DNA from: a virus
Taxonomy: Duplodnaviria; Heunggongvirae; Uroviricota; Caudoviricetes
DNA length: 50,364 nt
IMG/VR virus record: IMGVR_UViG_2563366831_000011
Span: 1 to 50,364 of that record
Strand: one strand, 5' to 3'
The notes beneath the pieces are model-generated. The model was given only the letters and a program-made list of their open reading frames with translations, made no database searches and was not told the origin of the DNA. The position numbers were made by a program, and so were the translations under genes. Of this stretch, positions 1,009 to 33,575 are shown one piece after another. The stretch's first letter is position 1. Each line of letters starts with the position of its first letter.

Positions 1009-1083
1009 GTCCTCTTAGTTAAATGGATATAACGAGCCCCTCCTAAGGGCTAATTGCAGGTTCGATTCCTGCAGGGGACACCA
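1009..1083 (+). tRNA. argW: tRNA-Arg (anticodon CCU), intact, CCA encoded
   Basis: 75 nt. Acceptor stem GTCCTCT/AGGGGAC (one G-U pair). Anticodon arm AGCCC-CTCCTAA-GGGCT gives anticodon CCT. T-arm is GCAGG-TTCGATT-CCTGC. Ends ACCA. Confidence 0.95.
1069..1083. repeat. attL core (CTGCAGGGGACACCA), identical to the 3' end of argW
   Basis: Exact 15-nt copy recurs at 48661-48675. Flanking bases differ on both sides. Confidence 0.85.
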
Positions 1084-1199
1084 TTTATCAGTTCGCTCCC
1101 ATCCGTACCAGTCCGTAAAATCCCCTGAATATCAAGCCTTCCGTAGATTTACAGTTCGTCATGGTTCGCGTCAGATCGTTGACAGCCGCACTACATGAC

Positions 1200-1244
1200 G
1201 GGTAAAAAGTGGATAAAATAATTTTACCCACCGGATTTTTACCC
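1200..1244. promoter_or_regulatory. attL arm / intS upstream region with three GGGTAAAA octamers (candidate arm-type recombinase sites)
   Basis: GGGTAAAA at 1200-1207. Its complement TTTTACCC at 1222-1229 and 1237-1244, abutting the intS ATG. Two more copies lie at the attR side (48582-48589, 48594-48601). Confidence 0.45.
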
Positions 1245-2405
1245 ATGCTCACCGTTAAGCAGATTGAAGCAGCAAAGCCGAAAGAAAAACCATACCGCCT
1301 TCTCGATGGTAATGGACTGTACCTTTATGTCCCTGTATCCGGGAAAAAGGTATGGCAGCTTCGCTACAAGATTGACGGTAAGGAGAAAGTCCTAACCGTA
1401 GGAAAATATCCGCTAATGACTTTGCAGGAGGCAAGGGATAAGGCATGGACTGCGAGGAAAGACATCTCGGTTGGCATCGATCCGGTAAAGGCGAAAAAGG
1501 CTTCGTCTAACAACAATTCATTTAGTGCGATTTACAAGGAATGGTACGAGCACAAGAAGCAAGTCTGGTCAGTAGGCTATGCAAATGAACTTGCAAAAAT
1601 GTTTGATGACGACATTTTACCTATCATCGGCGGCCTTGAAATTCAGGATATTGAGCCGATGCAACTACTGGAAGTAATCCGCAGATTTGAAGATCGCGGT
1701 GCAATGGAGCGAGCCAACAAAGCCCGCAGAAGATGCGGCGAGGTTTTCCGTTACGCTATTGTCACCGGCAGGGCTAAATATAACCCGGCACCTGACCTTG
1801 CTGACGCCATGAAAGGATACCGCAAGAAGAACTTCCCGTTTCTTCCTGCAGACCAGATCCCGGCATTCAACAAAGCACTGGCAACATTTTCAGGAAGTAT
1901 CGTATCGCTCATTGCGACCAAAGTTTTACGCTACACAGCCCTAAGAACGAAAGAGCTTCGTTCCATGCTATGGAAGAACGTCGATTTTGAAAACAGGATT
2001 ATCACCATCGACGCCAGCGTGATGAAGGGACGCAAGATTCATGTGGTCCCGATGTCGGACCAGGTGGTTGAACTTCTCACTACGCTAAGCTCCATCACTA
2101 AACCAGTATCAGAGTTTGTTTTTGCCGGACGCAACGATAAGAAGAAGCCAATCTGCGAGAACGCGGTATTGCTTGTGATCAAACAAATCGGCTATGAGGG
2201 TCTGGAAAGCGGTCACGGATTCAGGCATGAATTCAGCACGATTATGAACGAGCACGAATGGCCTGCTGATGCTATTGAAGTGCAACTTGCACATGCCAAC
2301 GGCGGATCTGTGCGCGGAATTTACAACCATGCTCAGTATCTCGATAAGCGCAGAGAAATGATGCAGTGGTGGGCTGATTACATCGATGGTCGTGCAGGAG
2401 TGTAA
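1245..2405 (+). CDS. intS: Tyrosine integrase IntS (KplE1/CPS-53, Sf6/HK620 type)
   Basis: ORF-track product from MLTVKQIEAAKPKEKPYRLLDGNGLYLYV... matches my recollection of E. coli IntS. The C-terminal catalytic region contains HGFRHEF and a later Y (GIYNHAQY). I chose the start at the ATG at 1245 rather than the GTG at 1209. Confidence 0.9.
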   Translation: MLTVKQIEAAKPKEKPYRLLDGNGLYLYVPVSGKKVWQLRYKIDGKEKVLTVGKYPLMTLQEARDKAWTARKDISVGIDPVKAKKASSNNNSFSAIYKEWYEHKKQVWSVGYANELAKMFDDDILPIIGGLEIQDIEPMQLLEVIRRFEDRGAMERANKARRRCGEVFRYAIVTGRAKYNPAPDLADAMKGYRKKNFPFLPADQIPAFNKALATFSGSIVSLIATKVLRYTALRTKELRSMLWKNVDFENRIITIDASVMKGRKIHVVPMSDQVVELLTTLSSITKPVSEFVFAGRNDKKKPICENAVLLVIKQIGYEGLESGHGFRHEFSTIMNEHEWPADAIEVQLAHANGGSVRGIYNHAQYLDKRREMMQWWADYIDGRAGV

Positions 2406-2409
2406 GCCA

Positions 2410-3441
2410 TTACGCGAATTCTTCCACGATCGCCATGCCAGTAGCACCATCACCACCGGTAAATGCCGCACCGGTAAACCCAAGGTCATACGCGCCACCA
2501 CCACCGGATCCGGGAGCTGCGCCAGCAATACCGGCCTGAGAACCCGCCCGGCCACCGCCGCCAAAATACGACGCCCCGCCGTTGCCCGTCAGAAGGCTTG
2601 AGCCTGTCTGTCCATCTGAGCCGGTACCACCGTTGATCCTGATATCTCCGGTCGCCGCCGTACCTCCGGCGCCGCCGGCGGTATTGGACACGCCTGACTT
2701 CACGCCGCCTTTCCCGCCAGGAGCTGAGAACAGGCTGGCAAACGAGGTGGCCCCACCATCTGCACCACTTACTGCGCCAACTCCGCCCTTACCACCCTTG
2801 CCGACAGTAATCGCATAAGAACTGGCAGCAGACAGGTCAACCCATACGATAATGGTCGCGCCCGCGCCGCCGCCAGCACCGGAGAAGGTTTCTGTATTGT
2901 TGTAGGCCTGGCAGCCGCCACCGCCGCCACCGGCACCTGTCAACGTTACTTTTGCATAACGGGCCAGAGGAGATCGCGTATAGGTTCCGTTTGCATAGAA
3001 AGCTTTTGGAGCGCCAAGTGAACGCCCGACAAAACCAGAGGAATCAGATATTCCGAGGTTATAACGGGCTTCATTTACCGCATCCTCACCGGCATCTTTA
3101 ATTTCTGACAGGTTATTGCTGATCTGCAGGAACGATAACAATGATCCGGCTGTCATTAAATTCGCGACAATGTCATTCGTTGACCATACGCGTGCCGTTG
3201 TTCCTTCCTGACCACGAATTACTGTCATCACGTCACCGGATACAGACGTTACGTGCATAATTTCAGAAATTGTTTTCGTGGCCGCGTCGGTTATCGTTAA
3301 TTTGAAATAACTCTGCCCAGATACAGGAGAAGGGAATAAAGCCCCCGCTCCAGTTCCCACGGTAATAACGGTAGCGGACGCACTAATACCCGCAGCGAGA
3401 ACACTCTTTGCGTTATTATTGGCTAATAGCTTCAGCGCCAT
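2410..3441 (-). CDS. Tail fibre protein 2 with glycine-rich C-terminal module
   Basis: 343 aa. The N-terminal domain (ITVGTGAGALFPSP...YFKLTITD...VTSVSGDVMTVIRGQEGT) is typical of short fibre N-termini. The C-terminal roughly 190 aa is Gly-rich and paralogous to the C-terminus of the 431-aa fibre at 6914-8209. Confidence 0.7.
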   Translation of the reverse strand: MALKLLANNNAKSVLAAGISASATVITVGTGAGALFPSPVSGQSYFKLTITDAATKTISEIMHVTSVSGDVMTVIRGQEGTTARVWSTNDIVANLMTAGSLLSFLQISNNLSEIKDAGEDAVNEARYNLGISDSSGFVGRSLGAPKAFYANGTYTRSPLARYAKVTLTGAGGGGGGCQAYNNTETFSGAGGGAGATIIVWVDLSAASSYAITVGKGGKGGVGAVSGADGGATSFASLFSAPGGKGGVKSGVSNTAGGAGGTAATGDIRINGGTGSDGQTGSSLLTGNGGASYFGGGGRAGSQAGIAGAAPGSGGGGAYDLGFTGAAFTGGDGATGMAIVEEFA

Positions 3442-3452
3442 ATATACCCCAG

Positions 3453-3770
3453 TTAAATAATAGAATTATCAGAACGAACATCGCAGATAGTAAATGTCAC
3501 GACGCCGATGACAGTAACATCGTCCAGGGCTTCACCCTCGATCACTTCGCCATCTTCGGTAATAAGTGATCTTCCTCTCAGCTTGGCAAGCTCCGTCCCG
3601 CCGCCATGCTGTATAAGCAGTTGGCTACCCTGCTTTGGCTTCAGGGAGATATCTAGTACAACGTAACCACCAGATCGCTCGAAAACTAGCGTGTTTGGGC
3701 CGACATTGCAGATCGAGTTAACAGACAACCTTTGCTCGACGTAGTCCGTCGCTGGTGAAGGGAATCCCAT
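3453..3770 (-). CDS. UmuD'-like (peptidase S24 fold) protein, encoded already 'processed'
   Basis: Starts MGFPSPATDYVEQR, equivalent to UmuD just after its Cys24/Gly25 cleavage site (GFPSPAADYVEQR). The C-terminus VTVIGVVTFTI resembles UmuD DVFGVVIHVV. The start is coupled to the upstream stop through TAATG, with GGGAGGG as the SD. Confidence 0.65.
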   Translation of the reverse strand: MGFPSPATDYVEQRLSVNSICNVGPNTLVFERSGGYVVLDISLKPKQGSQLLIQHGGGTELAKLRGRSLITEDGEVIEGEALDDVTVIGVVTFTICDVRSDNSII

Positions 3771-4009
3771 TAGATCACCCTCCCCATGTTGGCCATCATC
3801 CACAGGCGGTTTTCACTATGCTCTGCCGTTTTATCGATGAAGTAAGACTGCTCGCGAGCGATCCAGGCGTTAGCCTCCACCTCGGAAAAGTGAATGCTAC
3901 GCCGGCGCAGCGCGGTAATGAAGTCGCGGGTGTGAAGGTACTGGAACCCCTTAGAACTGCGCAATACCGACTCGCGGAATGCCTGATTGATGTCTGACTG
4001 TCGATGCAT
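3770..4009 (-). CDS. 79-aa hypothetical protein, first gene of the SOS-box operon
   Basis: ATG at 4009 is preceded by GGAGGG (5-nt spacer). The product starts MHRQSDINQAFRESVLRSSKGF. I did not recognise a family. Confidence 0.6.
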   Translation of the reverse strand: MHRQSDINQAFRESVLRSSKGFQYLHTRDFITALRRRSIHFSEVEANAWIAREQSYFIDKTAEHSENRLWMMANMGRVI

Positions 4010-4026
4010 GTCTTCCCTCCGATAAA

Positions 4027-4080
4027 TACTGTTTTTATATACAGTAGTTTTATTAGAAGGGAAGCTCAAGTGGTTGACAA
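4027..4080 (-). promoter_or_regulatory. Sigma70-like promoter with overlapping LexA (SOS) box
   Basis: Minus strand reads TTGTCA (4080-4075), a 17-nt spacer, TCTAAT (4057-4052), 5 nt, then TACTGTATATAAAAACAGTA (4046-4027). The box has CTG-N10-CAG with an AT-rich centre, close to the consensus TACTG(TA)5CAGTA. Confidence 0.75.
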
Positions 4081-4758
4081 TCAGTTGCCGTACTGGTCTC
4101 TATAGTATGATTTTATTTGTGAAATTTCTGATGTTGTCTTCGAAGTTGAAAAGATAAGAACTTCCGCATAGTTAACGTTATTCGCGGCAGTCGCCGCCAG
4201 CGTTAGCGGAGCATTCTGGTAGGTAATAGACGATGCCGCGGCTACGGTTATGGTCGCGTCGTTGACATACACCGTCTCGGTGTCAGTTATCGGGTCGTAG
4301 TTCACGATCACAAGATCAATGCCTGTGGATAAGGTCACCCCTCCCTGCTGGGTTGATGACCCTGTTTTGTAATAGTAGAGCTTGTTATCTGTCTGTGCCT
4401 GTAGCCGCAGATGGGGCCCCGCGATTAAAAAGGTAGCTTGTGTGGTGTTATCTCGCTTGAAAGCGAAGGCGTAGCAATAGCCGTTTTCCGCTGTAGCAGG
4501 GTAGACATTCTCAGATGTGACGCCGCCATTTGCGGTTAGCGCACTTTTCATCGTCTTGATTCCGTTCAGCGTCGACGCTGAGATTGCAGAACCTAATGCA
4601 ATATTCATATCGCCAGCGCGGTCTGCAAGAGTTGATACTCGCCAGTCAAAATAGTGCGAAGGGTTCCACCTGGCTGTTTTATCATCGCGCTCGGTATAGG
4701 TGGACTGAATACCGCTATTAACGGCGTTTGGAACCTGTAAAAAAGTACAAATTGCCAT
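4081..4758 (-). CDS. LamG/concanavalin-A-like lectin-fold protein (accessory receptor-binding candidate)
   Basis: 225 aa, beta-rich. The C-terminal signature NYAEVLIFSTSKTTSEISQIKSYY resembles the LamG-domain ending (..v.iy.raLs..Ei..l). It sits between fibre and spike genes. Confidence 0.5.
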   Translation of the reverse strand: MAICTFLQVPNAVNSGIQSTYTERDDKTARWNPSHYFDWRVSTLADRAGDMNIALGSAISASTLNGIKTMKSALTANGGVTSENVYPATAENGYCYAFAFKRDNTTQATFLIAGPHLRLQAQTDNKLYYYKTGSSTQQGGVTLSTGIDLVIVNYDPITDTETVYVNDATITVAAASSITYQNAPLTLAATAANNVNYAEVLIFSTSKTTSEISQIKSYYRDQYGN

Positions 4759-4769
4759 GGGTGTATTCC

Positions 4770-6899
4770 TTATTTTCTTAGGGATTGTACGGCGTAGTTC
4801 AGCAGTACTCGTTTTGCCTGATACGCGCCGATAATTCTGGCACCTCTGGCGTTAGGATGTGGGTCTGCGGGATTTGTTGTCGAATATGCATAGCCGTTCT
4901 GAAATGCAAAATTAGAATTCTTTATGAGGTCTCTTACATTGAATCCCAGCATTTTATAGGTTGACTGGATATTATCAAAAACGCTCTCACGCTTAATGTG
5001 ATTGTCGCTATACCAGCGCTCAAGGAAAATAGGCAATTTAGGAATCGCTGATTGAACACGTTCAACTATTGCACTATATCCGTTGAGAAAATCTGTGTCA
5101 GAAAGAGCATAATCATTTTCCCCAAGATTAATAAACGCGACATCCGGCTGAAAATATTGTATCCAGTATTGCTGATAAGACGCTGTTTGATTCAGGTAAT
5201 ACTGAAATGTTGCACCTCCTCTTGCGTAACGAATGACTCTGACGCCGCCAGCAGAGTTGATGCAATTGAAGCTGATCAGGGCAGGATAGCCTGCCTGACC
5301 AGATGCGGGAGGTTCAATTTCCAGGGCGAATCGACCTGAGTTCGGCCCCAGACCCTCCACCCTAACGATTGTTATCGTTTCGCTACCCTCAGGGTTATTC
5401 GGTATTGTGGCTGTTTGCCATTCCCCTGAACCCGCCGGGCCGGTGGAACCATCGTCATTCCTGTCGGTTGCACGGAACCGGAACTGACTAGATGTTCCGG
5501 CGTCTCCGGTACCAGTAAAACCGACCTCGACAACGTCGTGCTGATAAATGGGGTTGCTGCGGGCCGAATCTTTTACGCGAAAAAACAGGTTAGTTCGTCC
5601 AGCCCACGGTACTAGAGCAAAACTCAATGGTGCACATTTTTTCCCATAGGTCTGGTTATCGACCCAGCCAGTATAAACTAACTCCATATTCAGCAGATCT
5701 CTTGACGCTGTGTTATCGTTTGACGGTGCAAAATAACCGATACCCCCATGCCCAAGATTTGCTGCAAAAAGGCTGTACATAGCGTCAATGGCACCCAATC
5801 CCCCTGTGCCTGCAGTGAGAGAGTCACCCTGACAAAAAATAGTTAGATATCCTCCTGTGTATGCCCTTTCCTGCATCGCGATCATGTAATCAAGAAGACC
5901 AGTCTCTGGCAAGCTTGATGCAGCCTGAGAACCTCCTGACCCCGGCAATAGCAATTGGTCGTCGCTTCCGAGAATAGCGAATGGCGAAGATGAGTAGCCC
6001 TTTAAAATAGAACATCCGGCATCTTCTAAAGAATCAGTAGTTAAAAAAGATGCCATCTGGTTATCGCTTCCCATTACAGATAATGGCTTGCCTGGGATAC
6101 CGTAACCATATTTGATATCTGCCCCAGCATCGCGCATTCTGTCGCTATCATTGCCGTATTCAAGGACCTGATAATCAGTGCCTATGATTACGAATTTTTC
6201 ATCTCCGTATCCACTAAGAAATCTTACCCCTGCAAATATCCACGTTGAGGGCATCTGACGTCCGGTAGGCTGCAGCGTTCCGTCAACGTTTACTACCTCA
6301 ATAGCGAGCGTGTCGTCATTGTCAGTGCGATAATAAGCATTTGACCCAACAGGAATATTTCCAGCGTCTGCATCTGCCTGCGCCGCAGCCAGCGTCGGAA
6401 ACTCGCGGATTGTCCCTGTTATGGCCGCTGTACCCGGCTGCTTTGCCTGCAATACGGCCACGCCTGCTTTGTTTTGATACTGCCATGCAGCAGAAAGCGC
6501 ATCTGGACCTTGGGCTACCCAGAATGACTGCCCTTCAGTCGTTGCGGCCAGCCCGGCAATAGTGCCATCAGGATCGCTTGAGGTTTTATAGAATGTGAAC
6601 TTATTCCGTGCATATTCAGAGGCATCATTCTTGTACTCTTCAGCCTGCGCAGCTGAACCTGCGGCTGCCGTTGCCGATTCGGATGAGGCAGCGGCCGAAG
6701 TAGCAGCACTTTGTTCGGCCGTTTCTGCTGAGTTCTTGGCAGCTTCAGCCGCAGTTGCAGCATTAATCGCTTCCTGAGTGGTGGCGCTAATATCCTGATA
6801 GCCCTGCTGGACCTCGATCAGGTACTGCTTTGCCTCTGCGGCACTCACGGACGCCTCTGCCGCGAACTGTGCCGTTTGCTGTGTGTCGGTAGTCGCCAT
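4770..6899 (-). CDS. Tail spike/fibre with C-terminal SGNH (GDSL) esterase domain
   Basis: The N-terminus is an Ala-rich coiled-coil fibre shaft. The C-terminal half carries block I CQGDSLTAG, block III INLGENDY and block V DPHPNARG, all SGNH hydrolase hallmarks. ATG at 6899 follows AGGA; a GTG at 6920 is an alternative start. Confidence 0.7.
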   Translation of the reverse strand: MATTDTQQTAQFAAEASVSAAEAKQYLIEVQQGYQDISATTQEAINAATAAEAAKNSAETAEQSAATSAAASSESATAAAGSAAQAEEYKNDASEYARNKFTFYKTSSDPDGTIAGLAATTEGQSFWVAQGPDALSAAWQYQNKAGVAVLQAKQPGTAAITGTIREFPTLAAAQADADAGNIPVGSNAYYRTDNDDTLAIEVVNVDGTLQPTGRQMPSTWIFAGVRFLSGYGDEKFVIIGTDYQVLEYGNDSDRMRDAGADIKYGYGIPGKPLSVMGSDNQMASFLTTDSLEDAGCSILKGYSSSPFAILGSDDQLLLPGSGGSQAASSLPETGLLDYMIAMQERAYTGGYLTIFCQGDSLTAGTGGLGAIDAMYSLFAANLGHGGIGYFAPSNDNTASRDLLNMELVYTGWVDNQTYGKKCAPLSFALVPWAGRTNLFFRVKDSARSNPIYQHDVVEVGFTGTGDAGTSSQFRFRATDRNDDGSTGPAGSGEWQTATIPNNPEGSETITIVRVEGLGPNSGRFALEIEPPASGQAGYPALISFNCINSAGGVRVIRYARGGATFQYYLNQTASYQQYWIQYFQPDVAFINLGENDYALSDTDFLNGYSAIVERVQSAIPKLPIFLERWYSDNHIKRESVFDNIQSTYKMLGFNVRDLIKNSNFAFQNGYAYSTTNPADPHPNARGARIIGAYQAKRVLLNYAVQSLRK

Positions 6900-6913
6900 A
6901 ATTTTTCCTGTTA

Positions 6914-8209
6914 TTACCACTCGATATGCACAATGCCATCGGCGCCATCGCCGGACGGGTAAGCTATTCCGCTGAAATCAATATCGTAAGCACCACCACC
7001 GCCAGAGCCTGCTGCTTTCCCTTTCACACCGCCGGTTGCGCCGCTGCGTCCTCCGCCACCCCAGAACGAAGCCCCGCCAGAACCGGTAAGCATGTTGGTC
7101 GCAGCCTGGCCGTCATGACCAGTGCCACCCTGAATGTTGATATCGCCACCTGACGCAACACCGCCATCACCACCGGCGCTGTTCACGATGCTGGCCTTGT
7201 TGGATTTTTTTCCACCGCGGCCGAAGATGATCCCACCCAAAGAAGAGTCACCGCCGTCATTGCCCGATACGGCACCTAAAACCGCTGCACCGCCTTTGCC
7301 GACGACAACGGATAAGGTCGTTCCCGGGACAACGTCCAGCCAGCCTAAAGCTGTACCGCCAGCCCCGCCACCGCCACCGCTATAGGACTCACTTGAGGAG
7401 GACGCCTGACAACCGCTTCCGGATCCGCCTGCACCCGTCACGGTGTAACGAATGCGCGTCACCCCTGCAGGCACGACGAACGAATACGTCCCGTTGACTG
7501 CGTAAGCGATGTTTCCGTGAGGCTTCGAAAGGGAGGTTACGTTGGTTCCATCGGAGTGGATTTGCGTAACCGTTCCTGGCTTGCTGACAACTGTTGCGCC
7601 CGCCGCCCTGGTACTTAACTGAACGTAGTAAGCGCTGCCGGTGCAGTTATTTTCGATGGTCCAGTCTTTCACCCATGGAGGGAGATATAGGATCCGGTTA
7701 CCAGTTAGCGCGCCGGTGAGAATTAGCCGTGGGTTAGCAGCCTGCAGATCGGTGGCGTTAACGTTAGCCGTCGATATTGAAATGCTGGCCGCTCCGCATC
7801 CCCATGAAGGCATCCAGCCAGATGCCGTTGCATCGGTTTTTTCCGGTGCGGTGTTATTGGAGTCAATGGTGTTGAGCCACGACACCGAGTAATCGCTGGA
7901 AGGGATCACCGCACCTTTAGGGTAGCCTGAAATTGCTGTTCTGAAATCTGCGTTAAAGGGGTACCCCATCCCGGCATCCGACCATTGCAGGCGAGTGTAA
8001 AGATCATTAAAAATGCCGTTAAAGTCCTGACCCTTTGGCGGCTTACCGCCGGCAGAAAGTGCGATACGGGTCAGCGGCGGGAAACCGGAATCCATAGCCG
8101 CCAGGCCGTCGGCCAGCGTTTCAGAGGTGGAATTGACCGGGATCGTGTTTTTGTCGCCGCTCGCAGAAAATACAACCGTCAGACGTGACGGTATGGCTGA
8201 ATTATTCAA
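6914..8209 (-). CDS. Tail fibre protein 1 with glycine-rich C-terminal module
   Basis: 431 aa. The N-terminus (GFPPLTRIALSAGGKPPKGQDFNGIFNDL...GYPKGA) resembles the baseplate-attachment region of myovirus fibres. The C-terminal roughly 195 aa is Gly-rich and paralogous to 2410-3441. Confidence 0.75.
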   Translation of the reverse strand: MNNSAIPSRLTVVFSASGDKNTIPVNSTSETLADGLAAMDSGFPPLTRIALSAGGKPPKGQDFNGIFNDLYTRLQWSDAGMGYPFNADFRTAISGYPKGAVIPSSDYSVSWLNTIDSNNTAPEKTDATASGWMPSWGCGAASISISTANVNATDLQAANPRLILTGALTGNRILYLPPWVKDWTIENNCTGSAYYVQLSTRAAGATVVSKPGTVTQIHSDGTNVTSLSKPHGNIAYAVNGTYSFVVPAGVTRIRYTVTGAGGSGSGCQASSSSESYSGGGGGAGGTALGWLDVVPGTTLSVVVGKGGAAVLGAVSGNDGGDSSLGGIIFGRGGKKSNKASIVNSAGGDGGVASGGDINIQGGTGHDGQAATNMLTGSGGASFWGGGGRSGATGGVKGKAAGSGGGGAYDIDFSGIAYPSGDGADGIVHIEW

Positions 8210-8210
8210 T

Positions 8211-8798
8211 TCAGACCTCCTGAACGATGTTAACTTTTACCCCGGGAGGGGAAGGAAGCGCGCCGGAGCTTTGCACTATGGCCAGCTCAGATTCGGAAAG
8301 CTGGAACTCGAATACGTAGCTCATGACATGGTTTCCATCGTCACGCACGTAAGCTCGCCCACTGGCTCCGAACATGTACATCAGCATGCGATTCATGACC
8401 GGCACGGTGCAGTCGCTGATTTTCGCCATCGCTTTGCACATGATCAGCTTGCGGTATGCCTCATTGGTCAGGACGACAGTATTCGTGTCCTGTACGCCGG
8501 TATAGAAAGGTGCCTGGTTAAAGGGTTGCGGGTCGGTGAGTTCTGCCGGGGTACTGGTCGCTTCGCCAAACCCCAGAAACTGCTGGGATGGCGTCACAGT
8601 CAGCAAGCGCTCTACATCAACGATTTTACCCCAGCACATCAGCCCGTAATCACCACAGGTCTCGATGTTGAATACGAGGTCATAGAACGTGTCTATCCAG
8701 TCCTCTGGCGCTACAGAAGCGTTAAATGTGTCAATCAGTGACCGCAGGCTGGTTGAGTTCACGTACTGCGCGTAGATCGTCCAGTCGACATTATTCAC
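8211..8798 (-). CDS. Baseplate/tail protein (DUF2612-like by recollection)
   Basis: 195-aa ORF immediately downstream of the baseplate-J-like gene, with an overlapping start. The call rests on position and size. Confidence 0.5.
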   Translation of the reverse strand: MNNVDWTIYAQYVNSTSLRSLIDTFNASVAPEDWIDTFYDLVFNIETCGDYGLMCWGKIVDVERLLTVTPSQQFLGFGEATSTPAELTDPQPFNQAPFYTGVQDTNTVVLTNEAYRKLIMCKAMAKISDCTVPVMNRMLMYMFGASGRAYVRDDGNHVMSYVFEFQLSESELAIVQSSGALPSPPGVKVNIVQEV

Positions 8799-10023
8799 TT
8801 ACCGCCTCCGTTATGATGTTTGTCGCATCGAGGGTCGGTTCCTGATCTATCCCCATAGTCAGCGCACTAGACCAGGTGGTTCCGTCCAGAGAGATCTGGA
8901 CAGAAAGAACGTTCATGTTCTGTGCATCGAGCGCCTGAATGGGTCCGATATAGCGGCTGCCATAAATTCGCGCGCCGGCACGCGCCCGGGTACCTCCATC
9001 TGCGCCGGTAAAGGCATTCAGGACGACCGTTCTGATCTGCGCGTTGATATCTGACGGAAGGCCATCATTTTCCTCATATTCCACCTTGATATGAACACTC
9101 ACCGCGTCCAGCGTTTTCCACCTGTAGGTGTACTCCGGATAAGGGGCGTCATAATTTTCGGTATCCTGCACGGTCCCGGTGGTGTCACCGTTCATAACGG
9201 TGCCCGGGGGGAGTTTTTTATTGATGGCCGCTGCAATCTCAGCTACTGCCCCGCCATAAACCCCGATATAAATCGAGCTGGCCAGCAGTGTGTAATTCGT
9301 GGAACCTTTTTCGACGGAAGTCGGCTCTTTGTTGTCGATCACATAAACATCAAGCACCCCGTCGACTTCCAGGACAGCAGCCCGCACAGCCGCCGCCGTG
9401 TTGAAGGCGTTACGTGCCACTGACTGGCGACGGCGATACTCAAATGCAGATCGCCCTTCAACATTCGAGCCCGGTACACCCGCGGTCTCGTTGGTGATAC
9501 TCGACCAGCCACTTACCGCGACATAGATGTTTGTCAGCGTACCGATGGGGCAAGCTATCGGACCGGTAGTCAGGTTCTGGAACTCAATTTTTACCGTCCC
9601 GTCTGCGCCAATCGTTCCGGCCGCCAGGGACACGTACATATAACCGTTATCGTCTGTTGCATAGGACTGTGCCGGAATAACCGTTCCCGGTACGCCGGAG
9701 CATGTGGCCGTTACAACCGTACCCGCAGCAGCAATACGATCGAGGAAGTAAATCCTGCCAATGCCATCCTGAAATCTTCCGGAGGAAAAGTCCGGGTTCA
9801 TGTTGTTGACGATAGCCAGAAGCTGATCGTTCTTGTCTGCGATGATTGCAGTATCAGTGACAGCCAGTTGCCCCTGTGGCGTCTTGAGGTTCGTGCTCAT
9901 CGCCGTCCCGAATGCAGAACCAATATCTGCTATACGCCCGGCAAGAATGTCTCCCTCATCCGGAACATCAAGGCCAGTGGTGGAAAAGGTCACGGCCGGT
10001 ACCGCCGTAGAGATTGTCGTCAT
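8791..10023 (-). CDS. Baseplate J-like wedge protein
   Basis: 410 aa counted from the ATG at 10023 (SD GAGGAAAAA). Size and position (after a small W/gp25-sized protein, before the fibres) fit a baseplate J family member. Confidence 0.55.
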   Translation of the reverse strand: MTTISTAVPAVTFSTTGLDVPDEGDILAGRIADIGSAFGTAMSTNLKTPQGQLAVTDTAIIADKNDQLLAIVNNMNPDFSSGRFQDGIGRIYFLDRIAAAGTVVTATCSGVPGTVIPAQSYATDDNGYMYVSLAAGTIGADGTVKIEFQNLTTGPIACPIGTLTNIYVAVSGWSSITNETAGVPGSNVEGRSAFEYRRRQSVARNAFNTAAAVRAAVLEVDGVLDVYVIDNKEPTSVEKGSTNYTLLASSIYIGVYGGAVAEIAAAINKKLPPGTVMNGDTTGTVQDTENYDAPYPEYTYRWKTLDAVSVHIKVEYEENDGLPSDINAQIRTVVLNAFTGADGGTRARAGARIYGSRYIGPIQALDAQNMNVLSVQISLDGTTWSSALTMGIDQEPTLDATNIITEAVSE

Positions 10024-10030
10024 TTTTTCC

Positions 10031-10387
10031 TCACAGGGTGACGCTGGAATCCAGGCCGTTGGTATCCACGATCGCAATAACGCCGGTAGTGCGGCGCGTA
10101 TCGCGGTTGTTAATCAGCGTCGGCTCAGCTCGCGCGATATAGCTCATCCGCAACGCTTCAACCTGAAGCGCGGCCGCCATGGCGCCAGTGCTGGCCTTAA
10201 CGTTAAGCAGCTCTTTGTAATTAACGCCGGTGTCTTTTTCGTAAATGCACTCGCCGCGTATAGCCAGGCATGCCGTCGCTACGTCCTGAGCGCAGGCGTA
10301 GGGGTTTTCAACCGTGGCGATATTACCCAGCTCATCAAGGACAAGATCCCAGGTGTCGGGATCGAGTTTGAGAGAGATTGTTTTCAT
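10031..10387 (-). CDS. Small baseplate protein (GPW/gp25-sized)
   Basis: 118-aa ORF directly upstream of the J-like gene. Confidence 0.5.
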   Translation of the reverse strand: MKTISLKLDPDTWDLVLDELGNIATVENPYACAQDVATACLAIRGECIYEKDTGVNYKELLNVKASTGAMAAALQVEALRMSYIARAEPTLINNRDTRRTTGVIAIVDTNGLDSSVTL

Positions 10388-10442: not shown

Positions 10443-11447
10443 TCAGTAGCGATGCAGTGAAGGCGGCAACTCTTTGTTCTTAAGTCTTACCCATGCGGAA
10501 AGATTCGTTGGTCCGTCTGGCTCATTGATATCAACATCTCGTGTGTGGTTGATTAAAACGTCTCTCGCCATTCCGATAACATACGAAAACTCATGACCGT
10601 AGTCGTAGCATCTTCCGGAATAGTTCGATTGAATTTGTTTTAATGCCGGATACAGTTCGCGGAATAATGCCTGTGATCGGTTAGCATAATCCCACAACCA
10701 TACAAGGCTGTTTGCTTCTTTTGCAGAAAGCTCGTTGGTGCTCTTCTCTTGTTTGCCAATGAACTCACCTTCAAGTGGAACTCGAGCTGCAAGTGACAGT
10801 GCTTCGGTAAACTGCTCCTCACTGATTTCTTTGTACGAACAGCCAAAATGAGATTTCAGTGACGACCACATAGTGATCATCGCCTTCGCCTGTTTTTCTT
10901 TTGGCAGAGACTGACCGCGACTCATGACGAGTTGTTTAATAGCTTCCTGCTGTTCAGTGGTGATTTTACCCGGCAACACCTTTTTAGCTTTGCGCGGGTT
11001 AACCACATGGCCTTTAGTCCAGTACTCGTAGAGCACATCGTCACACTCTTCCTGATACTGGATTACCTTGTCGCGGATTTCAGGGCGGACTTTGTTTGGT
11101 TGAATGCTTGAAAGCCAAGCCGCAAATTTACGAAAGGCAAGACATGTCATTAACTGTTTACCGCCAGCAGAAGGTATTTCGATTTCCGAAATACCTTTGG
11201 CAAACCTCTGTTTTAACTTAACAAATTGAGCAGCCCAAACCATCCCCATACCTTCAACAACAGGCTTCATAGGAACATAAGGCTCATTGTTAATTCCAAC
11301 CAAAAAGAGATTTGTTCCGTGGAATGGAACATTGATTGTGCGATCTGCAATTGCTAAACTAGTCATATCAGTTTTCTCGTGGTTAACTGGTAATTTAGAA
11401 GCCTCAATGGTTGCAGCCATTGAGGCTTCGCTGTTTTTAGCGACCAT
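10443..11447 (-). CDS. ant: Antirepressor Ant (P22 Ant-type N- and C-domains)
   Basis: 334 aa from [13 protein letters not shown]. The segment [29 protein letters not shown]...LKQRFAKG resembles the P22 antirepressor N-domain. The start overlaps the arc stop (ATGGTCGCTAA). Confidence 0.75.
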
Positions 11448-11610
11448 TCGCCACCTCTTCCCTAACACCTTTTGCCAGCAAACGAACAATTGCAGAGTTC
11501 AGAGATATACAGTCCATTTCCGCCAGGCGGCGAAGGTCTTCATTCAGCCGTGATGGAAGGCGAAGGTTGAGTTTGATATTTTTGCGCTCAGTGAAAAGTG
11601 TATCTTGCAT
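11437..11610 (-). CDS. arc: Arc-like ribbon-helix-helix repressor (57 aa; below the ORF-track cutoff)
   Basis: My own translation: [57 protein letters not shown]. It has the RHH pattern (beta-strand KLNLRLP plus two helices), an AGGAG SD, and sits immediately upstream of ant as in P22 immI. Confidence 0.7.
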
Positions 11611-11717
11611 TATCTAATCTCCTTTATTTGGTGCCAAAGTGACACCATGAAGGCCATGATGCCACCATTGAAATCGTATGGCAATATGGCACCATGATTT
11701 TTTTTGAGAGATTTGCA
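11611..11717. promoter_or_regulatory. Divergent promoter/operator region of the immI-like module
   Basis: Near-palindrome TGGTGCCAAAGTGACACCA (11629-11647). Repeated TG(G/A/C)CACCA motifs at 11640-11647, 11660-11667 and 11687-11694. The region lies between the divergent arc and mnt-like genes. Confidence 0.5.
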
Positions 11718-12038
11718 ATGGCCGAAAAACAAGTAAAAGACTACGACAAGTTCAACCTCCGTTTTCCTGACGGAATGCGAGATGCTATAGCTGAACGAGC
11801 CAAACGAAACGGGCGCTCTATGAACTCAGAGATTGTTCAGATACTGGAAGATGCCTTGAATGCAGAAAATACACTCGGGGAAATAGCAGATAAAATTAAC
11901 AGCGTCTCGGTTCCGCTAAATGTTGATGCGCTAGTTCAACTTCAAGCCCAGGTTATCGCCATGCAAAAAGAAATACAGGAAAAGTTCAGAGAGCAGAACG
12001 AAAAGTTGAGAGAACTGCTAAACAAAAAACCCACCTGA
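11718..12038 (+). CDS. Mnt-like repressor with Arc-type RHH N-terminal domain
   Basis: 106 aa from MAEKQVKDYDKFNLRFPDGMRDAIAERAKRNGRSMNSEIVQILEDAL, an Arc-domain pattern, with a coiled-coil C-terminus. It is divergent from arc-ant as mnt is in P22. Confidence 0.65.
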   Translation: MAEKQVKDYDKFNLRFPDGMRDAIAERAKRNGRSMNSEIVQILEDALNAENTLGEIADKINSVSVPLNVDALVQLQAQVIAMQKEIQEKFREQNEKLRELLNKKPT

Positions 12039-12706: not shown

Positions 12707-13294
12707 TCACGGCTCCAGGGGTTCAGTTCGGCTTCCTCCTGATACTACCCCACCATGAGTATGCCCATCAACGATAGAACCGTCGACAAGCTCAAGCTGC
12801 CCGTTTGGATGGACTTTCAGGCCGTTGATGTTAACCACTCCAGGGCTCTGTATGTTTATTCCGCTTCCTGTAAACTCAGCGAACTCCGTGGGTTCATCGT
12901 TCAAACTAGCGATAGCAGTGATGTAAACAGCATCCGAGTATGAATGGCGCCGCTGAGTTGGCGGTGGTCCACTTTGCCTTGACGCTCTGACATTGGTTGT
13001 GTCTTTGTCACAGGCGATTACCAGTCCAATATCGCCAATGCGGGGAGTCATTTTTACAGCGCTGTTCCCAGCCTGATACCGAATGAAGGGGATGTCATAT
13101 ACCTCCTGACATTTAATCTCCCCCCCGGAAACGTTCGCGCCGCTCACAAGAGGTAGCACAGTCATAACGCCATCACCAACATCTTTAACCAGAACAATAT
13201 CTGCAAAAACATTGCCCTTTGATGCCGTGGCTATAAGGGACAAGATCGCGTTACCCTGACAGGAGATATCAGAAGCTTTTTGGTTAGTTGCCAT
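12707..13294 (-). CDS. Baseplate central spike / assembly protein V-like (Mu gp45 / P2 gpV type)
   Basis: 195 aa from MATNQKASD. It has an OB-fold-like N-half, and the C-terminus GSIVDGHTHGG is reminiscent of spike tips. The start was chosen at 13294, overlapping the upstream stop. Confidence 0.55.
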   Translation of the reverse strand: MATNQKASDISCQGNAILSLIATASKGNVFADIVLVKDVGDGVMTVLPLVSGANVSGGEIKCQEVYDIPFIRYQAGNSAVKMTPRIGDIGLVIACDKDTTNVRASRQSGPPPTQRRHSYSDAVYITAIASLNDEPTEFAEFTGSGINIQSPGVVNINGLKVHPNGQLELVDGSIVDGHTHGGVVSGGSRTEPLEP

Positions 13295-14153
13295 TGCTTT
13301 CCCCTCCGATGACAGATGCCGGAGATGCCACAACAAACGTCTCCCAAAGCCCACCAGGCACTTTACAGGACAGATAGTGGGTAGTCCCCGCCTGCACCAC
13401 CCACTCGCCGCTAGCGTGTGGCAAGTCTGTTTTCAGGATGATCTTCGTATTCAATTTTAGCGCCGGTGAATAAATGCACCTAAAGTTAATCCCCATCTCA
13501 TAAAATATTGGATACCCAATAAGTCCATGCTCTGGCGAAATTAACGGAACAACTGAATCCGACGGTGTTTTGCCTGTATAAATTGTGACAGTGCCAAAAT
13601 CTATATCAACAGATATGTCATGCGCTGCCGCAATTTTTAATATTTGGATTATTGCGTTGTCATCGAAATACGGATTCCGATGCGTCGCTTTGACGTCGAC
13701 ATTGATGAATTTCAGGCCAACTTTAAAGGCAAGAGCACGAATCATATCAGCAACATCAGCATCGCCGCGAATGGACGTAGGCTCGCAGGGGATCAGGCGC
13801 TCCCTGCCGGCGGCCGCCGCGGTTATCTCAATCGGTGCGTCCGGCATCTGGTTCAGGTTAATCCTGGCAGATGTTATTGACCCGGAAAAAACACGGGTGT
13901 CGCCGGCGTAAACGACAATTGAGTTCTGTGCATACGCGATTATCTTTTGCGCGTTGGTCGTCAACTTTGACATGTTTTCCAGGGAAAGTCCCCAGAGGCT
14001 AAGTTCAAGAATCGTTCCGGTAGCGCCGCCAAATGCTGATATAGCCGCCTCACACTTGAAACCTTTAACCGTCAAGGTGTCGCCAATGTCGCCGTCAAAC
14101 GTACCGTTGGCCAGCGTGAACGATACGGTAAGCTCTCTCTCCTTGTAACTCAT
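13284..14153 (-). CDS. Tail/baseplate hub-like structural protein
   Basis: 289-aa ORF in the post-tape-measure block. The call rests on position only. Confidence 0.45.
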   Translation of the reverse strand: MSYKERELTVSFTLANGTFDGDIGDTLTVKGFKCEAAISAFGGATGTILELSLWGLSLENMSKLTTNAQKIIAYAQNSIVVYAGDTRVFSGSITSARINLNQMPDAPIEITAAAAGRERLIPCEPTSIRGDADVADMIRALAFKVGLKFINVDVKATHRNPYFDDNAIIQILKIAAAHDISVDIDFGTVTIYTGKTPSDSVVPLISPEHGLIGYPIFYEMGINFRCIYSPALKLNTKIILKTDLPHASGEWVVQAGTTHYLSCKVPGGLWETFVVASPASVIGGESNGN

Positions 14154-14455
14154 CTGCCGACCTCACTGCTCGTCGCATAATACAGCTTGAATCTGGTGCC
14201 GATTTCGTCGTAATAGGGATCGGCTGTACCTTTTGAATCAACGAAAACCAGATCGCCACTGAACCCCAGATATTTATACCGAACCAGGTAAACGCAGTTC
14301 AGGCAGAGAACACCCTGAAATATCGGCTTGTCATCGACATACAGATCGGCGTAAAACCCGGTTGAACGCTGATGTAACTTGATCGCGCAGTTCTGGCCGT
14401 CAAGCGTGACATAGACCTTTTGGGATAGTGACGGTGATAAGCTAATTTCCTGCAT
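14150..14455 (-). CDS. Small tail structural protein
   Basis: 101-aa ORF with coupled start and stop codons inside the tail operon. Confidence 0.45.
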   Translation of the reverse strand: MQEISLSPSLSQKVYVTLDGQNCAIKLHQRSTGFYADLYVDDKPIFQGVLCLNCVYLVRYKYLGFSGDLVFVDSKGTADPYYDEIGTRFKLYYATSSEVGR

Positions 14456-17958: not shown

Positions 17959-18516
17959 TCATGATTCGGTAAGCGCACCAGGAAAACCGGGCAATGCCAA
18001 CTGACCTTGCTTGTCCAGTTGCTCAATGCGTGAAAGTAGCTGTGGCTTCTTCTCTTTCCCCCACCGGCGCAACAGACGACCAGACATACTGGCAACATCC
18101 TTCTCTTTAAGGAACTCCAGCATGACGGCGTTACGCTCTTCTTCAAACTGGCGCCGCCCAACCTGAAGCATCGCGTACATCCAGTTGAAGGCGTTGATGT
18201 AGGCGATCTTGATACGCATCGCCTCTTTTTTGGTGTAGGACATAACCAGAAGCATCAATCCATCTTTGCGGAGGCGATAGAACTTCTGCGGCTTTCCGTT
18301 CTGCAACTCATTGTTTTTATAGCAAACCTCAAAATTGAGTTTTGTATCGAACTCTTCCGGGCATGCCTTAATAGTCTTTTCGATATCACGAATGACGTTG
18401 TCAGGACGTTTCCCAAATGCCTTCGCCACCATAAACGAGTCAGTTACCGGGTCGTTGTCAGCAACAAAAATGAGGTCACGGAAATCAAGTCCGTTAATAA
18501 CTGTTGGGTATGACAT
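17959..18516 (-). CDS. rha: Rha-family phage regulatory protein (copy A), inserted in the tail operon
   Basis: 185 aa. VTDSFMVAKAFGKRPDNVIRDIEK...KFYRLRKDGLMLLVMSYTKKEAMRIKIAYINAFNWM is the pRha-domain pattern. It is a paralogue of 31312-31836. Confidence 0.75.
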   Translation of the reverse strand: MSYPTVINGLDFRDLIFVADNDPVTDSFMVAKAFGKRPDNVIRDIEKTIKACPEEFDTKLNFEVCYKNNELQNGKPQKFYRLRKDGLMLLVMSYTKKEAMRIKIAYINAFNWMYAMLQVGRRQFEEERNAVMLEFLKEKDVASMSGRLLRRWGKEKKPQLLSRIEQLDKQGQLALPGFPGALTES

Positions 18517-33494: not shown

Positions 33495-33570
33495 TGGTGC
33501 TGTTTAACGGACTTGAACCGCTACCCATTCGCTTACAAGGCGACCGCTCTACCATTGGAGCTAAAACAGC
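33495..33570 (-). tRNA. Phage tRNA-Thr (anticodon UGU)
   Basis: The reverse complement is GCTGTTTTAGCTCCAATGGTAGAGCGGTCGCCTTGTAAGCGAATGGGTAGCGGTTCAAGTCCGTTAAACAGCACCA. It has a 7-bp acceptor stem, the anticodon loop CTTGTAA, and a T-loop TTCAAGT. There is one mismatch at the base of the anticodon stem. Confidence 0.75.
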
Positions 33571-33575
33571 ATGTT

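What the first reader, a model, noticed from the sequence alone, without database searches (positions are those of the whole stretch)
2410..8209. Two tail-fibre proteins with unrelated N-termini share a diverged glycine-rich C-terminal module with a single conserved Cys
Seen in the sequence: the C-terminal roughly 190 aa of the 343-aa protein (2410-3441) and of the 431-aa protein (6914-8209) align by eye.
- YAKVTLTGAGGGGGGCQAYNNTETFSGAGGGAGATIIVWVDL aligns with IRYTVTGAGGSGSGCQASSSSESYSGGGGGAGGTALGWLDV.
- VGKGGKGGVGAVSGADGGATSF aligns with VGKGGAAVLGAVSGNDGGDSSL.
- GDIRINGGTGSDGQ aligns with GDINIQGGTGHDGQ.
- GSGGGGAYDLGFTGAAFTGGDGATGMAIVEEF aligns with GSGGGGAYDIDFSGIAYPSGDGADGIVHIEW.

Their N-terminal anchoring domains are different. 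The two genes are separated by an esterase spike, a LamG-like protein and the SOS bicistron.

Inference: this is a modular receptor-binding or tip domain of uncharacterised fold, duplicated on two different anchors. That would give a branched or dual-specificity adsorption apparatus. It is not an RTX GGXGXD repeat pattern.
Basis: seen in the sequence. Interest (0 to 1): 0.5.

Follow-up and report, generated by a model that had tools for sequence, protein, structure and literature searches.

The report
Two phage fibres sharing glycine-rich tips
A Klebsiella-type prophage encodes two tail-fibre proteins with different attachment ends and the same kind of receptor-binding tip, a known fold (Pfam PF21722, solved in cyanophage Pam3), so this is an ordinary case of phage fibre module shuffling.

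Summary
The last ~200 aa of the 343-aa and 431-aa proteins align at 49% identity (BLASTP E=1e-22 with composition adjustment, z=36 against shuffles). Their N-termini are unrelated.

The shared Cys is not conserved in the family (24/45 and 18/50 homologues). The two tips are not in-genome duplicates, because each has closer relatives on other anchors.

The 431-aa protein is the baseplate fibre of a Pam3-like minimal baseplate. The 343-aa protein has a Ralstonia phage GP4-type fibre N-domain. It is the last gene of a portable cassette: LexA box, 79-aa gene, UmuD'-like 105-aa gene, short fibre. That cassette occurs in sipho- and myovirus prophages, with the short-fibre tip swapped among Gly_rich_2, gp53-like_C and Collar.

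That the 343-aa protein is carried on the virion is inferred, not shown. Verdict: new member of a known kind, modest interest.

The parts
6914..8209 (-). 431-aa baseplate tail fibre (whole gene)
   Evidence: ORF. Full-length match to PHROG 12796 'tail fiber protein', E=1.9e-178. Lies directly after the wedge genes. The identical protein is called in the same context in L010.
7535..8209 (-). N-terminal anchor half of the 431-aa fibre (residues 1-225)
6917..7534 (-). TNF-like + glycine-rich (TG) receptor-binding domain of the 431-aa fibre (residues 226-431)
2410..3441 (-). 343-aa short fibre (whole gene), last gene before the integrase
   Evidence: ORF. PHROG tail-fibre families 863, 6202 and 454. 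dN/dS 0.13 against the L002 copy. The same gene sits at the end of other prophages.
3121..3441 (-). GP4-type fibre N-terminal docking domain of the short fibre (residues 1-107)
   Evidence: Profile hit to PDB 8JOV 'putative tail fiber protein' residues 6-107, E=2.8e-10. That chain is 100% identical to the Ralstonia podophage GP4 fibre. The domain is found in 143 phage records, including the Pantoea phage PdC23 fibre directly after DUF2612 at 63% identity. AF2 confidence is low here for the monomer.
3022..3120 (-). Helical neck and module junction of the short fibre (residues 108-140)
   Evidence: Predicted helices at residues 111-128. DNA homology to cassettes carrying other tips breaks at about window 3040-3090.
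2413..3021 (-). TG receptor-binding domain of the short fibre (residues 141-343)
   Evidence: PF21722 at 51.6 bits. Profile hit to 7YFW, E=4.4e-8. Foldseek top hits are 7YPX and Bxb1 gp33 (9D93). pLDDT above 90.
4770..6920 (-). 716-aa SGNH/GDSL esterase spike between the two fibres
   Evidence: Lipase_GDSL and Lipase_GDSL_2 hits at residues 556-697. PHROG 14987. The N-terminal 225 aa is shared with spikes of the same baseplate type, and the enzymatic part is swapped in relatives.
4081..4758 (-). 225-aa protein of unknown function downstream of the spike
   Evidence: PHROG 19416 only. No Pfam or PDB hit. Absent from PDP110P1, which has both fibres.
4027..4046 (-). LexA (SOS) box upstream of the 79-aa gene
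   Evidence: TACTGTATATAAAAACAGTA is the only CTGT-N8-ACAG in the 50-kb window, with 0 matches in 100 shuffles. Conserved at the same place in L001, L002, L003, L009 and L011.
3773..4009 (-). 79-aa gene, first of the SOS bicistron
   Evidence: PHROG 3893, unknown function. 75-89% identical in the other cassettes. Its stop codon overlaps the ATG of the next gene.
3453..3770 (-). 105-aa UmuD'-like gene. The short-fibre ATG follows 11 nt after its stop codon.
   Evidence: PHROG 3469 and 811 'UmuD-like'. PDB UmuD' 1I4V/1UMU, E about 1e-5, aligned from UmuD Gly25, with SGDSM replaced by SGGYV.
8211..10077 (-). Baseplate wedge genes (DUF2612/Phage_Wedge1 and Baseplate_J) that precede the 431-aa fibre
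   Evidence: PF11041 E=5e-50 and PF04865 E=4e-11. Pam3_gp18 plug and E217_GP41 hub lie further upstream.
1009..2405 (+). tRNA-Arg(CCT) attachment site and integrase, marking the prophage end
   Evidence: ARAGORN. The 398-aa ORF occupies the same position beside the formate/nitrite-transporter gene as the 386-aa Phage_integrase gene of L004-L008, which has Pfam Phage_integrase hits.

Best explanation
The window is a temperate Klebsiella-type myovirus prophage at tRNA-Arg, with a Pam3/E217-like minimal baseplate.

The shared about 200-aa module is the TNF-like beta-sandwich plus glycine-rich polyglycine-II/PPII lattice ('TG') receptor-binding domain. This is Pfam PF21722, and its structure is solved in cyanophage Pam3 fibre gp24.

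The 431-aa protein is the primary baseplate fibre. Its N-terminal 225 aa dock on the Baseplate_J/DUF2612 wedge, and its TG tip binds a surface glycan. That glycan is most likely LPS, as shown for the gp24 homologues of Klebsiella myophages SCNJ1-Y and MMNM.

The adjacent SGNH esterase spike probably de-acetylates or strips capsule or O-antigen first.

The 343-aa protein is an auxiliary short fibre made of three parts: a GP4/PdC23-type N-terminal docking domain, a short helical neck, and a second, divergent TG tip (about 50% identical). It probably adds a second glycan specificity.

Both anchors draw their tips from the same pool of modules (Gly_rich_2, gp53-like_C, Collar) by recombination at the neck. 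The pair therefore arose by module shuffling, not by duplication.

What is shown and what is inferred:
- Shown: homology, fold, modularity, genomic positions, purifying selection.
- Inferred: LPS as the ligand, trimeric state, presence of the 343-aa protein in the virion, its docking site, and dual specificity.
For: Fold and family:
- PF21722 hits on both proteins.
- Profile hits to 7YFW/7YPX, E=1.6e-14 and 4.4e-8.
- Confident AF2 models.
- 346 viral structure matches.
- 4857 cluster representatives, with the domain almost always at the extreme C-terminus.

Baseplate type:
- Pam3_gp18, E217_GP41, Phage_Wedge1 and Baseplate_J families.
- The 431-aa gene lies directly after the wedge genes.

Receptor role:
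- The TG domain recognises host receptors in Pam3 (PMC9608196).
- TFP_Y binds LPS and gates DNA ejection, and host-range mutations map to the glycine-rich domain (PMC12671077).
- MMNM_27 host-range mutations map to the loops (PMC11633184).

Short fibre:
- N-domain hit to the GP4 fibre in a solved virion, E=2.8e-10.
- The same domain heads the fibre after DUF2612 in PdC23 and a 1110-aa spike in L009.
- The C-terminal tip is swapped among three module types at a fixed breakpoint.
- dN/dS is 0.13.
- The short fibre is kept intact where its upstream neighbours have decayed.
- It co-occurs with the 431-aa fibre in phage PDP110P1.

Not a duplication.
Against: - No virion proteomics or adsorption data exist for either protein.
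- The 343-aa gene lies outside the contiguous tail module. It sits behind a LexA-box promoter and a UmuD'-like gene, in the usual moron position.
- Nearly the same short fibre occurs in lambda-like siphovirus prophages that lack this baseplate, so a wedge docking site cannot be general.
- The relative RCIP0114 lacks the short fibre altogether.
- The N-domain was modelled with low confidence as a monomer.
- No Pam3 gp25-like chaperone gene follows either fibre, and no neighbouring gene scanned matched a tail-fibre-assembly family.
- The ligand is extrapolated from homologues whose best-scoring profile alignments to the families of these two proteins are weak (E=1.6e-14 and 4.4e-8; about 22-26% structure-based identity to Pam3).
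Confidence: 0.65

Rival explanations
1. The 343-aa gene is not a virion component. It would be passenger cargo at the prophage end, for example an SOS-expressed moron with another role, or a spare receptor-binding cassette kept only as recombination material for host-range switching.
For: - It is the last gene before int, 11 nt after a UmuD'-like gene, behind a LexA box and a promoter-like TTGTCA-17-TCTAAT.
- It occurs in prophages with incompatible tail types: siphovirus L002, L004 and L006, and two myovirus baseplate types.
- It is absent from RCIP0114.
Against: - Its N-domain is a bona fide virion-docking fibre domain, seen in the GP4 cryo-EM entry 8JOV and in the PdC23 baseplate fibre position.
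- dN/dS of 0.05-0.15 shows selection on the protein.
- Tips are swapped exactly as in the baseplate fibre.
- There is no invertase, no DGR-like repeat and no long DNA identity with the 431-aa gene that would allow cassette exchange.
- It is kept intact, and 100% identical in four backbones, where the SOS genes have decayed.
Confidence: 0.25
2. The two tips are a recent in-genome duplication that gives redundant copies of one specificity.
For: Both modules share a domain family, a Cys at the same column and colinear motifs.
Against: - They are only 49-50% identical.
- No DNA repeat longer than 19 nt links the two genes.
- The 343-aa tip is 58-67% identical to tips on P2-type and other anchors, and the 431-aa tip ranks only 31st of its 124 hits. 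The 343-aa tip ranks 20th of 113 hits for the 431-aa tip.
- Differences are spread through the loop-forming segments. Host-range mutations map to such loops in homologues (PMC11633184).
Confidence: 0.05
3. The similarity is a glycine-composition artefact or a generic low-complexity repeat (RTX-like, collagen-like or PE_PGRS-like) with no specific fold.
For: About 30% Gly in both tips. One GGXGXD match in each protein. Some weak PDB hits to poly-Gly linkers.
Against: - The composition-adjusted E-value is 1e-22, z is 36.5 against shuffles and non-Gly columns are 40% identical.
- The curated Pfam threshold is passed twofold.
- There are no tandem RTX nonapeptides.
Confidence: 0.01
4. The TG domains are enzymes that modify or cleave LPS, rather than passive binders.
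For: The authors of the TFP_Y study leave open whether it hydrolyses LPS (PMC12671077).
Against: No catalytic family hit in Pfam or PHROGs. The structural neighbours (Pam3 gp24, Bxb1 gp33, ALK/LTK) are binding domains. Invariant columns are almost all Gly.
Confidence: 0.05

Closest known systems
Cyanophage Pam3 tail fibre gp24 (PDB 7YFW/7YPX)
   Different: - Pam3 gp24 has a simple alpha-helical N-terminal domain, disulfide-linked to the wedge, and a dedicated downstream chaperone gp25 (PMC9608196, PMC9942802).
- Here the anchors are a 225-aa mixed domain and a GP4-type domain.
- No chaperone gene follows either fibre.
- The phage carries two such fibres plus an esterase spike.
Klebsiella myophage fibres TFP_Y (SCNJ1-Y) and MMNM_27
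   Same: These are gp24-homologous small fibres of Klebsiella myoviruses that work alongside a capsule depolymerase spike. LPS is the receptor and host-range mutations fall in the glycine-rich loops (PMC12671077, PMC11633184). The window has the same logic: a spike plus TG fibres.
   Different: Those are virulent phages for which one TG fibre is described. Direct sequence comparison with them was not done here, because their sequences were not retrieved.
Mycobacteriophage Bxb1 gp33 'tail wing brush' and gp29 (PDB 9D93)
   Different: A siphovirus tail-tip accessory protein of an actinobacteriophage, in a different attachment context.
Salmonella phage S16 gp38 adhesin (PDB 6F45) and T2/T6 gp38
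   Same: A polyglycine-II lattice with variable distal loops as the receptor-binding tip (PMC9608196 and bioRxiv 10.1101/2023.11.25.568672).
   Different: - It is a separate adhesin capping gp37, with a beta-helix instead of a TNF-like domain and 10 glycine-rich motifs in 3 layers.
- It did not appear in the sequence searches or among the listed fold-search matches here. The relationship is an analogy or a very remote one.
ALK/LTK extracellular TNF-like plus glycine-rich (TG) domain
   Different: A metazoan receptor tyrosine kinase ligand-binding domain with a larger lattice and no role in phage biology.
Ralstonia podophage GP4 tail fibre (PDB 8JOV) and Pantoea phage PdC23 gp23
   Same: The N-terminal about 100-aa docking domain of the 343-aa protein is homologous: E=2.8e-10 to GP4 and 63% identity to PdC23.
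   Different: Their C-terminal parts differ. The docking partners (GP4 tail adaptor ring, PdC23 wedge) are not established for this prophage.
Branched multi-receptor-binding-protein systems (CBA120 TSP1-4, G7C gp63.1/gp66, Klebsiella KP32/KP34-type)
   Different: No gp10-like branching domain was demonstrated, and protein-protein contacts were not tested. The resemblance rests partly on general knowledge of those systems.

Membership tests
Pfam PF21722 Gly_rich_2 (glycine-rich domain) | Score above the curated gathering threshold over most of the model | tested here: met
   Both proteins score 51.6 bits against a cutoff of 24.3 and cover model positions 3-226.
Pam3 gp24-type TG tail fibre | C-terminal TNF-like beta-sandwich from which glycine-rich motifs form a polyglycine-II lattice | tested here: met
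Pam3 gp24-type TG tail fibre | Gene directly downstream of the wedge genes of a minimal (Pam3/XM1/E217-like) baseplate | tested here: met
   Met for the 431-aa gene. Not met for the 343-aa gene, which lies 3.5 kb further on, behind the SOS bicistron.
Pam3 gp24-type TG tail fibre | N-terminal alpha-helical bundle that docks to the wedge through disulfide bonds | tested here: not met
   The 431-aa N-half is a 225-aa mixed alpha/beta region. The 343-aa protein has a GP4-type N-domain plus a short helical neck and no Cys in its N-half. Disulfide bonding itself is not testable here.
Pam3 gp24-type TG tail fibre | Dedicated downstream fibre chaperone (gp25, TFA-like) | tested here: not met
   The genes downstream are the esterase spike and the convergent integrase. 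No neighbouring gene hit a tail-fibre-assembly family. A remote or unlinked chaperone is not excluded.
Pam3 gp24-type TG tail fibre | Binds a host surface receptor (LPS in the Klebsiella homologues) | not testable with these tools
   Literature only (PMC12671077, PMC11633184, PMC9608196).
RTX calcium-binding repeats (GGXGXDXUX) | Tandem nonapeptide repeats | tested here: not met
   One isolated GGXGXD in each protein and no GGXGXDXUX. No RTX family was reported in the Pfam scan.
S16/T2 gp38-type polyglycine-II adhesin | Separate tip adhesin with a beta-helix plus a 10-motif, three-layer lattice, detectable by sequence or structure similarity to 6F45 | tested here: not met
GP4-type fibre N-terminal docking domain (343-aa protein) | Sequence homology to the N-terminal about 100 aa of a fibre resolved in a virion structure | tested here: met
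   8JOV chain residues 6-107, E=2.8e-10. The chain was identified as the GP4 fibre by 100% tblastn identity.
GP4-type fibre N-terminal docking domain (343-aa protein) | A cognate docking partner encoded in the same phage | tested here: inconclusive
   A DUF2612/Baseplate_J wedge is present, and in PdC23 a fibre with this domain follows DUF2612. However, the same short fibre also occurs in siphovirus prophages without such a wedge.
Diversity-generating or invertible fibre cassettes (DGR; Mu Gin / P1 Cin) | Template/variable DNA repeats, or inverted repeats flanking alternative C-terminal exons | tested here: not met
   Only 18-19-nt chance-level repeats occur between the two genes, and both genes are on the same strand.

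The most novel reading that the evidence does not exclude
The unit [LexA box, 79-aa gene, UmuD'-like gene, short fibre] might be a portable auxiliary receptor-binding cassette that works independently of tail type. In that reading the short fibre is transcribed from an SOS-controlled promoter and attaches to virions of both siphovirus and myovirus prophages through a conserved GP4-type N-domain. Its docking site could be the spike or a common partner. Expression of an extra host-range determinant would then be coupled to the SOS signal that induces the prophage.
Probability: 0.12. Interest if true: 0.6.

Novelty: new member of a known kind. Interest (0 to 1): 0.3.

Why it matters
The result replaces NCBI's uninformative label 'glycine-rich domain-containing protein' for two Klebsiella prophage proteins. 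They can now be read as Pam3 gp24-type receptor-binding fibres, and the likely receptor class is LPS.

It also maps module boundaries that could be used to engineer the host range of Klebsiella phages or tailocins. The relevant boundaries are residues about 135-140 in the short fibre and about 225 in the baseplate fibre. Three interchangeable tip types are available: Gly_rich_2, gp53-like_C and Collar.

It does not reveal a new fold or mechanism. The only open biology is whether and where the auxiliary short fibre attaches, and whether its SOS-box context matters.

Tried and rejected
- Single-sequence phmmer of the 431-aa protein against PDB found only a poly-Gly linker artefact. The homology to Pam3 appeared only with family profiles.
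- tblastn of the TG domain against phage genomes found only 2 records, because the low-complexity filter masks it. It is useless for judging distribution, so the HMM search and BFVD were used instead.
- Literature searches for 'PF21722' and '8JOV' returned nothing. The 8JOV chain was identified by tblastn instead.
- The idea that the 79-aa and 105-aa proteins are adaptors or chaperones for the short fibre was rejected. RCIP0114 has them without the fibre, and L004-L008 keep the fibre with the pair decayed. The 105-aa protein is clearly UmuD'-like.
- DGR or invertible cassette: rejected.
- RTX: rejected.
- In-genome duplication: rejected.
- A functional role for the Cys: rejected as a family feature.
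- The sigma-70 scan missed the promoter-like hexamers upstream of the LexA box because of its position-2 rule.
- 'LamG-like' for the 225-aa protein could not be confirmed.
Full report
**1. Observation**

The two ORFs are real: 2410-3441 (-), 343 aa, and 6914-8209 (-), 431 aa with a TTG start.

- BLASTP with compositional adjustment aligns residues 141-340 with 226-430 at 49% identity over 205 columns, E=1e-22.
- A Smith-Waterman score of 527 compares with 112 +/- 11 for 1000 shuffles that preserve composition (z=36.5).
- In columns where neither residue is glycine, 53 of 132 are identical.
- The N-terminal parts score no better than shuffles.

Each tip has one Cys at the same column. Among homologues that column is Cys in only 24/45 and 18/50 sequences, and otherwise A, G, S, T or I. 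The Cys is not a defining residue.

Each protein has one GGXGXD match and no RTX nonapeptide.

**2. What the shared module is**

Sequence evidence:
- Both tips pass the curated threshold of Pfam PF21722 Gly_rich_2 (51.6 bits against 24.3).
- Both fall in several PHROG tail-fibre families.
- Single-sequence search of the PDB found nothing meaningful.
- Profiles built from 45 and 50 homologues hit the solved cyanophage Pam3 tail fibre (7YFW/7YPX) at E=4.4e-8 and 1.6e-14, and Bxb1 gp33 (9D93) at 7e-5.

Structure evidence:
- AlphaFold2 models have pLDDT above 90 throughout both tips.
- Foldseek ranks the Pam3 fibre and Bxb1 gp33 first, followed by the ALK/LTK extracellular domains.

The fold is thus the TNF-like beta-sandwich from which glycine-rich motifs run out and back to form a polyglycine-II/PPII lattice. 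It is described for Pam3 gp24 in PMC9608196 and PMC9942802, and discussed as a class in bioRxiv 10.1101/2023.11.25.568672 and PMC13243192.

The domain is common.
- An HMM of the two tips finds 4857 cluster representatives at E<=1e-3 and 669 at E<=1e-10. The domain sits almost always at the very C-terminus of proteins of 220-1400 aa.
- 346 predicted viral structures match, including fibres of phages Goslar, FoX6 and Mano.

**3. Function of that domain in relatives (literature)**

[quoted passage not shown] The distal loop tips are the variable part (PMC9608196).
- In Klebsiella myophage SCNJ1-Y the gp24 homologue TFP_Y recognises LPS after a depolymerase has removed capsule.
  - LPS triggers DNA ejection, and purified TFP_Y blocks it.
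  - Host-range mutations T169I and S209G lie in the glycine-rich domain (PMC12671077).
- In Klebsiella phage MMNM, evolved host-range mutations in the gp24 homologue MMNM_27 lie on the long loops (PMC11633184).

**4. The 431-aa protein**

The window is a prophage at tRNA-Arg(CCT) next to an integrase. It encodes a tail sheath and a minimal baseplate.
- Pam3_gp18 plug, E=2.8e-23, and E217_GP41 hub.
- Baseplate_J and DUF2612/Phage_Wedge1.

The 431-aa gene follows the wedge genes directly, in the position of Pam3 gp24. It matches PHROG 12796 'tail fiber protein' end to end.

**5. The 343-aa protein**

Its first about 107 residues match the N-terminus of the 'putative tail fiber protein' in PDB 8JOV (E=2.8e-10). 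By 100% tblastn identity that chain is a fibre of Ralstonia podophage GP4. GP4's fibres are resolved on the virion according to citing papers PMC11445570 and PMC12609058.

The same N-domain is found in 143 phage records of several morphotypes.
- In Pantoea phage PdC23 it heads the fibre encoded immediately after DUF2612 (63% identity).
- In locus L009 it heads an 1110-aa esterase spike.

It is therefore a genuine fibre-docking domain. A short predicted helical neck joins it to the TG tip.

**6. Genomic context of the short fibre**

The gene is always the last of a conserved unit. A 105-aa gene precedes it by 11-12 nt, usually with a 79-aa gene ahead of that, and a large spike lies upstream. 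This holds in prophages with three different tail architectures.
- Lambda-like siphoviruses (L002, L004, L006).
- The Baseplate_J plus DUF2612 myovirus type of the window (L007, L011).
- A second myovirus type (L005, L009, RothC).

The N-domain stays 74-99% identical, while the tip is Gly_rich_2, gp53-like_C or Collar. DNA homology breaks at about window 3040-3090, which is the neck.

Evidence that the gene is under selection and independent of its upstream neighbours:
- dN/dS between the window and L002 copies is 0.13.
- The short fibre is retained, 100% identical, in four backbones where the upstream pair has been half replaced by AT-rich DNA.
- RCIP0114 keeps the pair but has no short fibre.

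The short fibre and the pair are therefore independent neighbours. Phage PDP110P1 carries both TG fibres with a different spike between them.

**7. Not a duplication**

- The 343-aa tip is 58-67% identical to tips on other anchors, including P2-type fibres with PF12571 and PF03406.
- It is only about 50% identical to the 431-aa tip. Each ranks 20th-31st among the other's hits.
- No DNA repeat above 19 nt links the genes, and both are on the same strand. DGR, invertible-cassette and recent-duplication models are excluded.

**8. Best model**

The prophage builds a multi-receptor-binding-protein adsorption apparatus.
- An SGNH esterase spike that probably acts on capsule or O-antigen.
- A baseplate TG fibre (431 aa).
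- An auxiliary short TG fibre (343 aa) with a divergent tip.

The TG tips most likely bind LPS-type glycans and give two specificities.

The fold, homology, modularity and gene positions are shown. The ligand, trimeric state, virion incorporation of the 343-aa protein and its docking site are inferred.

The main rival (about 0.25) is that the 343-aa gene is non-virion cargo in the moron region. Points against a simple wedge-docking model are its presence in siphovirus prophages and its position behind an SOS promoter.

**9. Novelty**

The domain is curated in Pfam, solved structurally and functionally studied in Klebsiella phages. These are new members of a known kind. Two TG fibres on different anchors in one phage is a modest extension of known fibre mosaicism. 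The SOS-linked, tail-type-independent cassette is the only part that could turn out unusual.

Noticed in passing
window 4027-4046 (-), with promoter-like hexamers at about 4051-4079 (-): There is a near-consensus LexA box, TACTGTATATAAAAACAGTA. It is the only CTGT-N8-ACAG in 50 kb. It lies just downstream of TTGTCA-17-TCTAAT and just upstream of the RBS and ATG (4009) of the 79-aa gene. LexA boxes are conserved at the same place in L001, L002, L003, L009 and L011. The consensus promoter scan missed it.
   Followed up: partly
window 3453-3770 (-): The 105-aa protein is homologous to UmuD' (PDB 1I4V/1UMU, E about 1e-5). It starts exactly at the position of UmuD Gly25, which is the start of the already-cleaved form. 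SGDSM is replaced by SGGYV at the position that, from my own knowledge, holds the UmuD catalytic Ser60. It looks like a pre-activated UmuD' mimic without protease activity, under LexA control, reminiscent (from memory) of phage P1 HumD. Its stop codon lies 11 nt before the short-fibre ATG, with no terminator between them.
   Followed up: partly
window 3773-4009 (-): The 79-aa partner of the UmuD'-like gene (PHROG 3893) has no known function. Its stop codon overlaps the next ATG (TAATG), which suggests translational coupling. It is 75-89% identical across cassettes.
   Followed up: no
L004 7375-8001 (also L005-L008): In these Klebsiella prophages the 79-aa gene and the 5' half of the UmuD'-like gene are replaced by AT-rich DNA, following a strong terminator after the spike gene. 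The short fibre and its RBS remain intact and 100% identical in four different backbones.
   Followed up: partly
window 4770-6920 (-) and spikes in L001-L009, L011: Spike proteins are three-part mosaics. The N-terminal anchor tracks the tail type, a junction of about 38 aa (window spike residues 188-225) is common to all, and the enzymatic bodies are swapped (SGNH esterase or BNR_4). In L009 the spike N-terminus is the same GP4-type domain as the short fibre.
   Followed up: partly
window 4081-4758 (-): The 225-aa protein after the esterase spike (PHROG 19416) has no Pfam or PDB match. The gene is absent from PDP110P1.
   Followed up: partly
window 13284-14455 (-) and 8211-10387 (-): The baseplate is of the minimal Pam3/E217/XM1 type: Pam3_gp18 plug (E=2.8e-23), E217_GP41 hub, a baseplate-wedge-subunit PHROG hit for the 118-aa gene (its L007/L010 counterpart has a weak Sheath_initiator Pfam hit), Baseplate_J and DUF2612/Phage_Wedge1.
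   Followed up: partly
window 10443-11489 (-), 17959-18516 (-), 11694-12038 (+): Genes resembling regulators interrupt the tail and baseplate gene string. The 185-aa ORF at 17959-18516 matches Rha-like regulator and anti-repressor PHROGs. The 348-aa ORF at 10443-11489 lies where L010 has Bro-N/P22 antirepressor genes, and the small opposite-strand ORF at 11694-12038 lies where L010 has Arc-family genes. Neither of these two window ORFs was scanned here.
   Followed up: no
window 33495-33650 (-): Two prophage-borne tRNA genes, Thr(TGT) and Asn(GTT), lie adjacent to each other.
   Followed up: no
PHROG 863 annotation: PHROG 863 is labelled 'tail fiber assembly', yet it matches the fibres themselves over the TG domain (E=9e-65 and 2e-55). 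The label is likely misleading for annotation pipelines.
   Followed up: no
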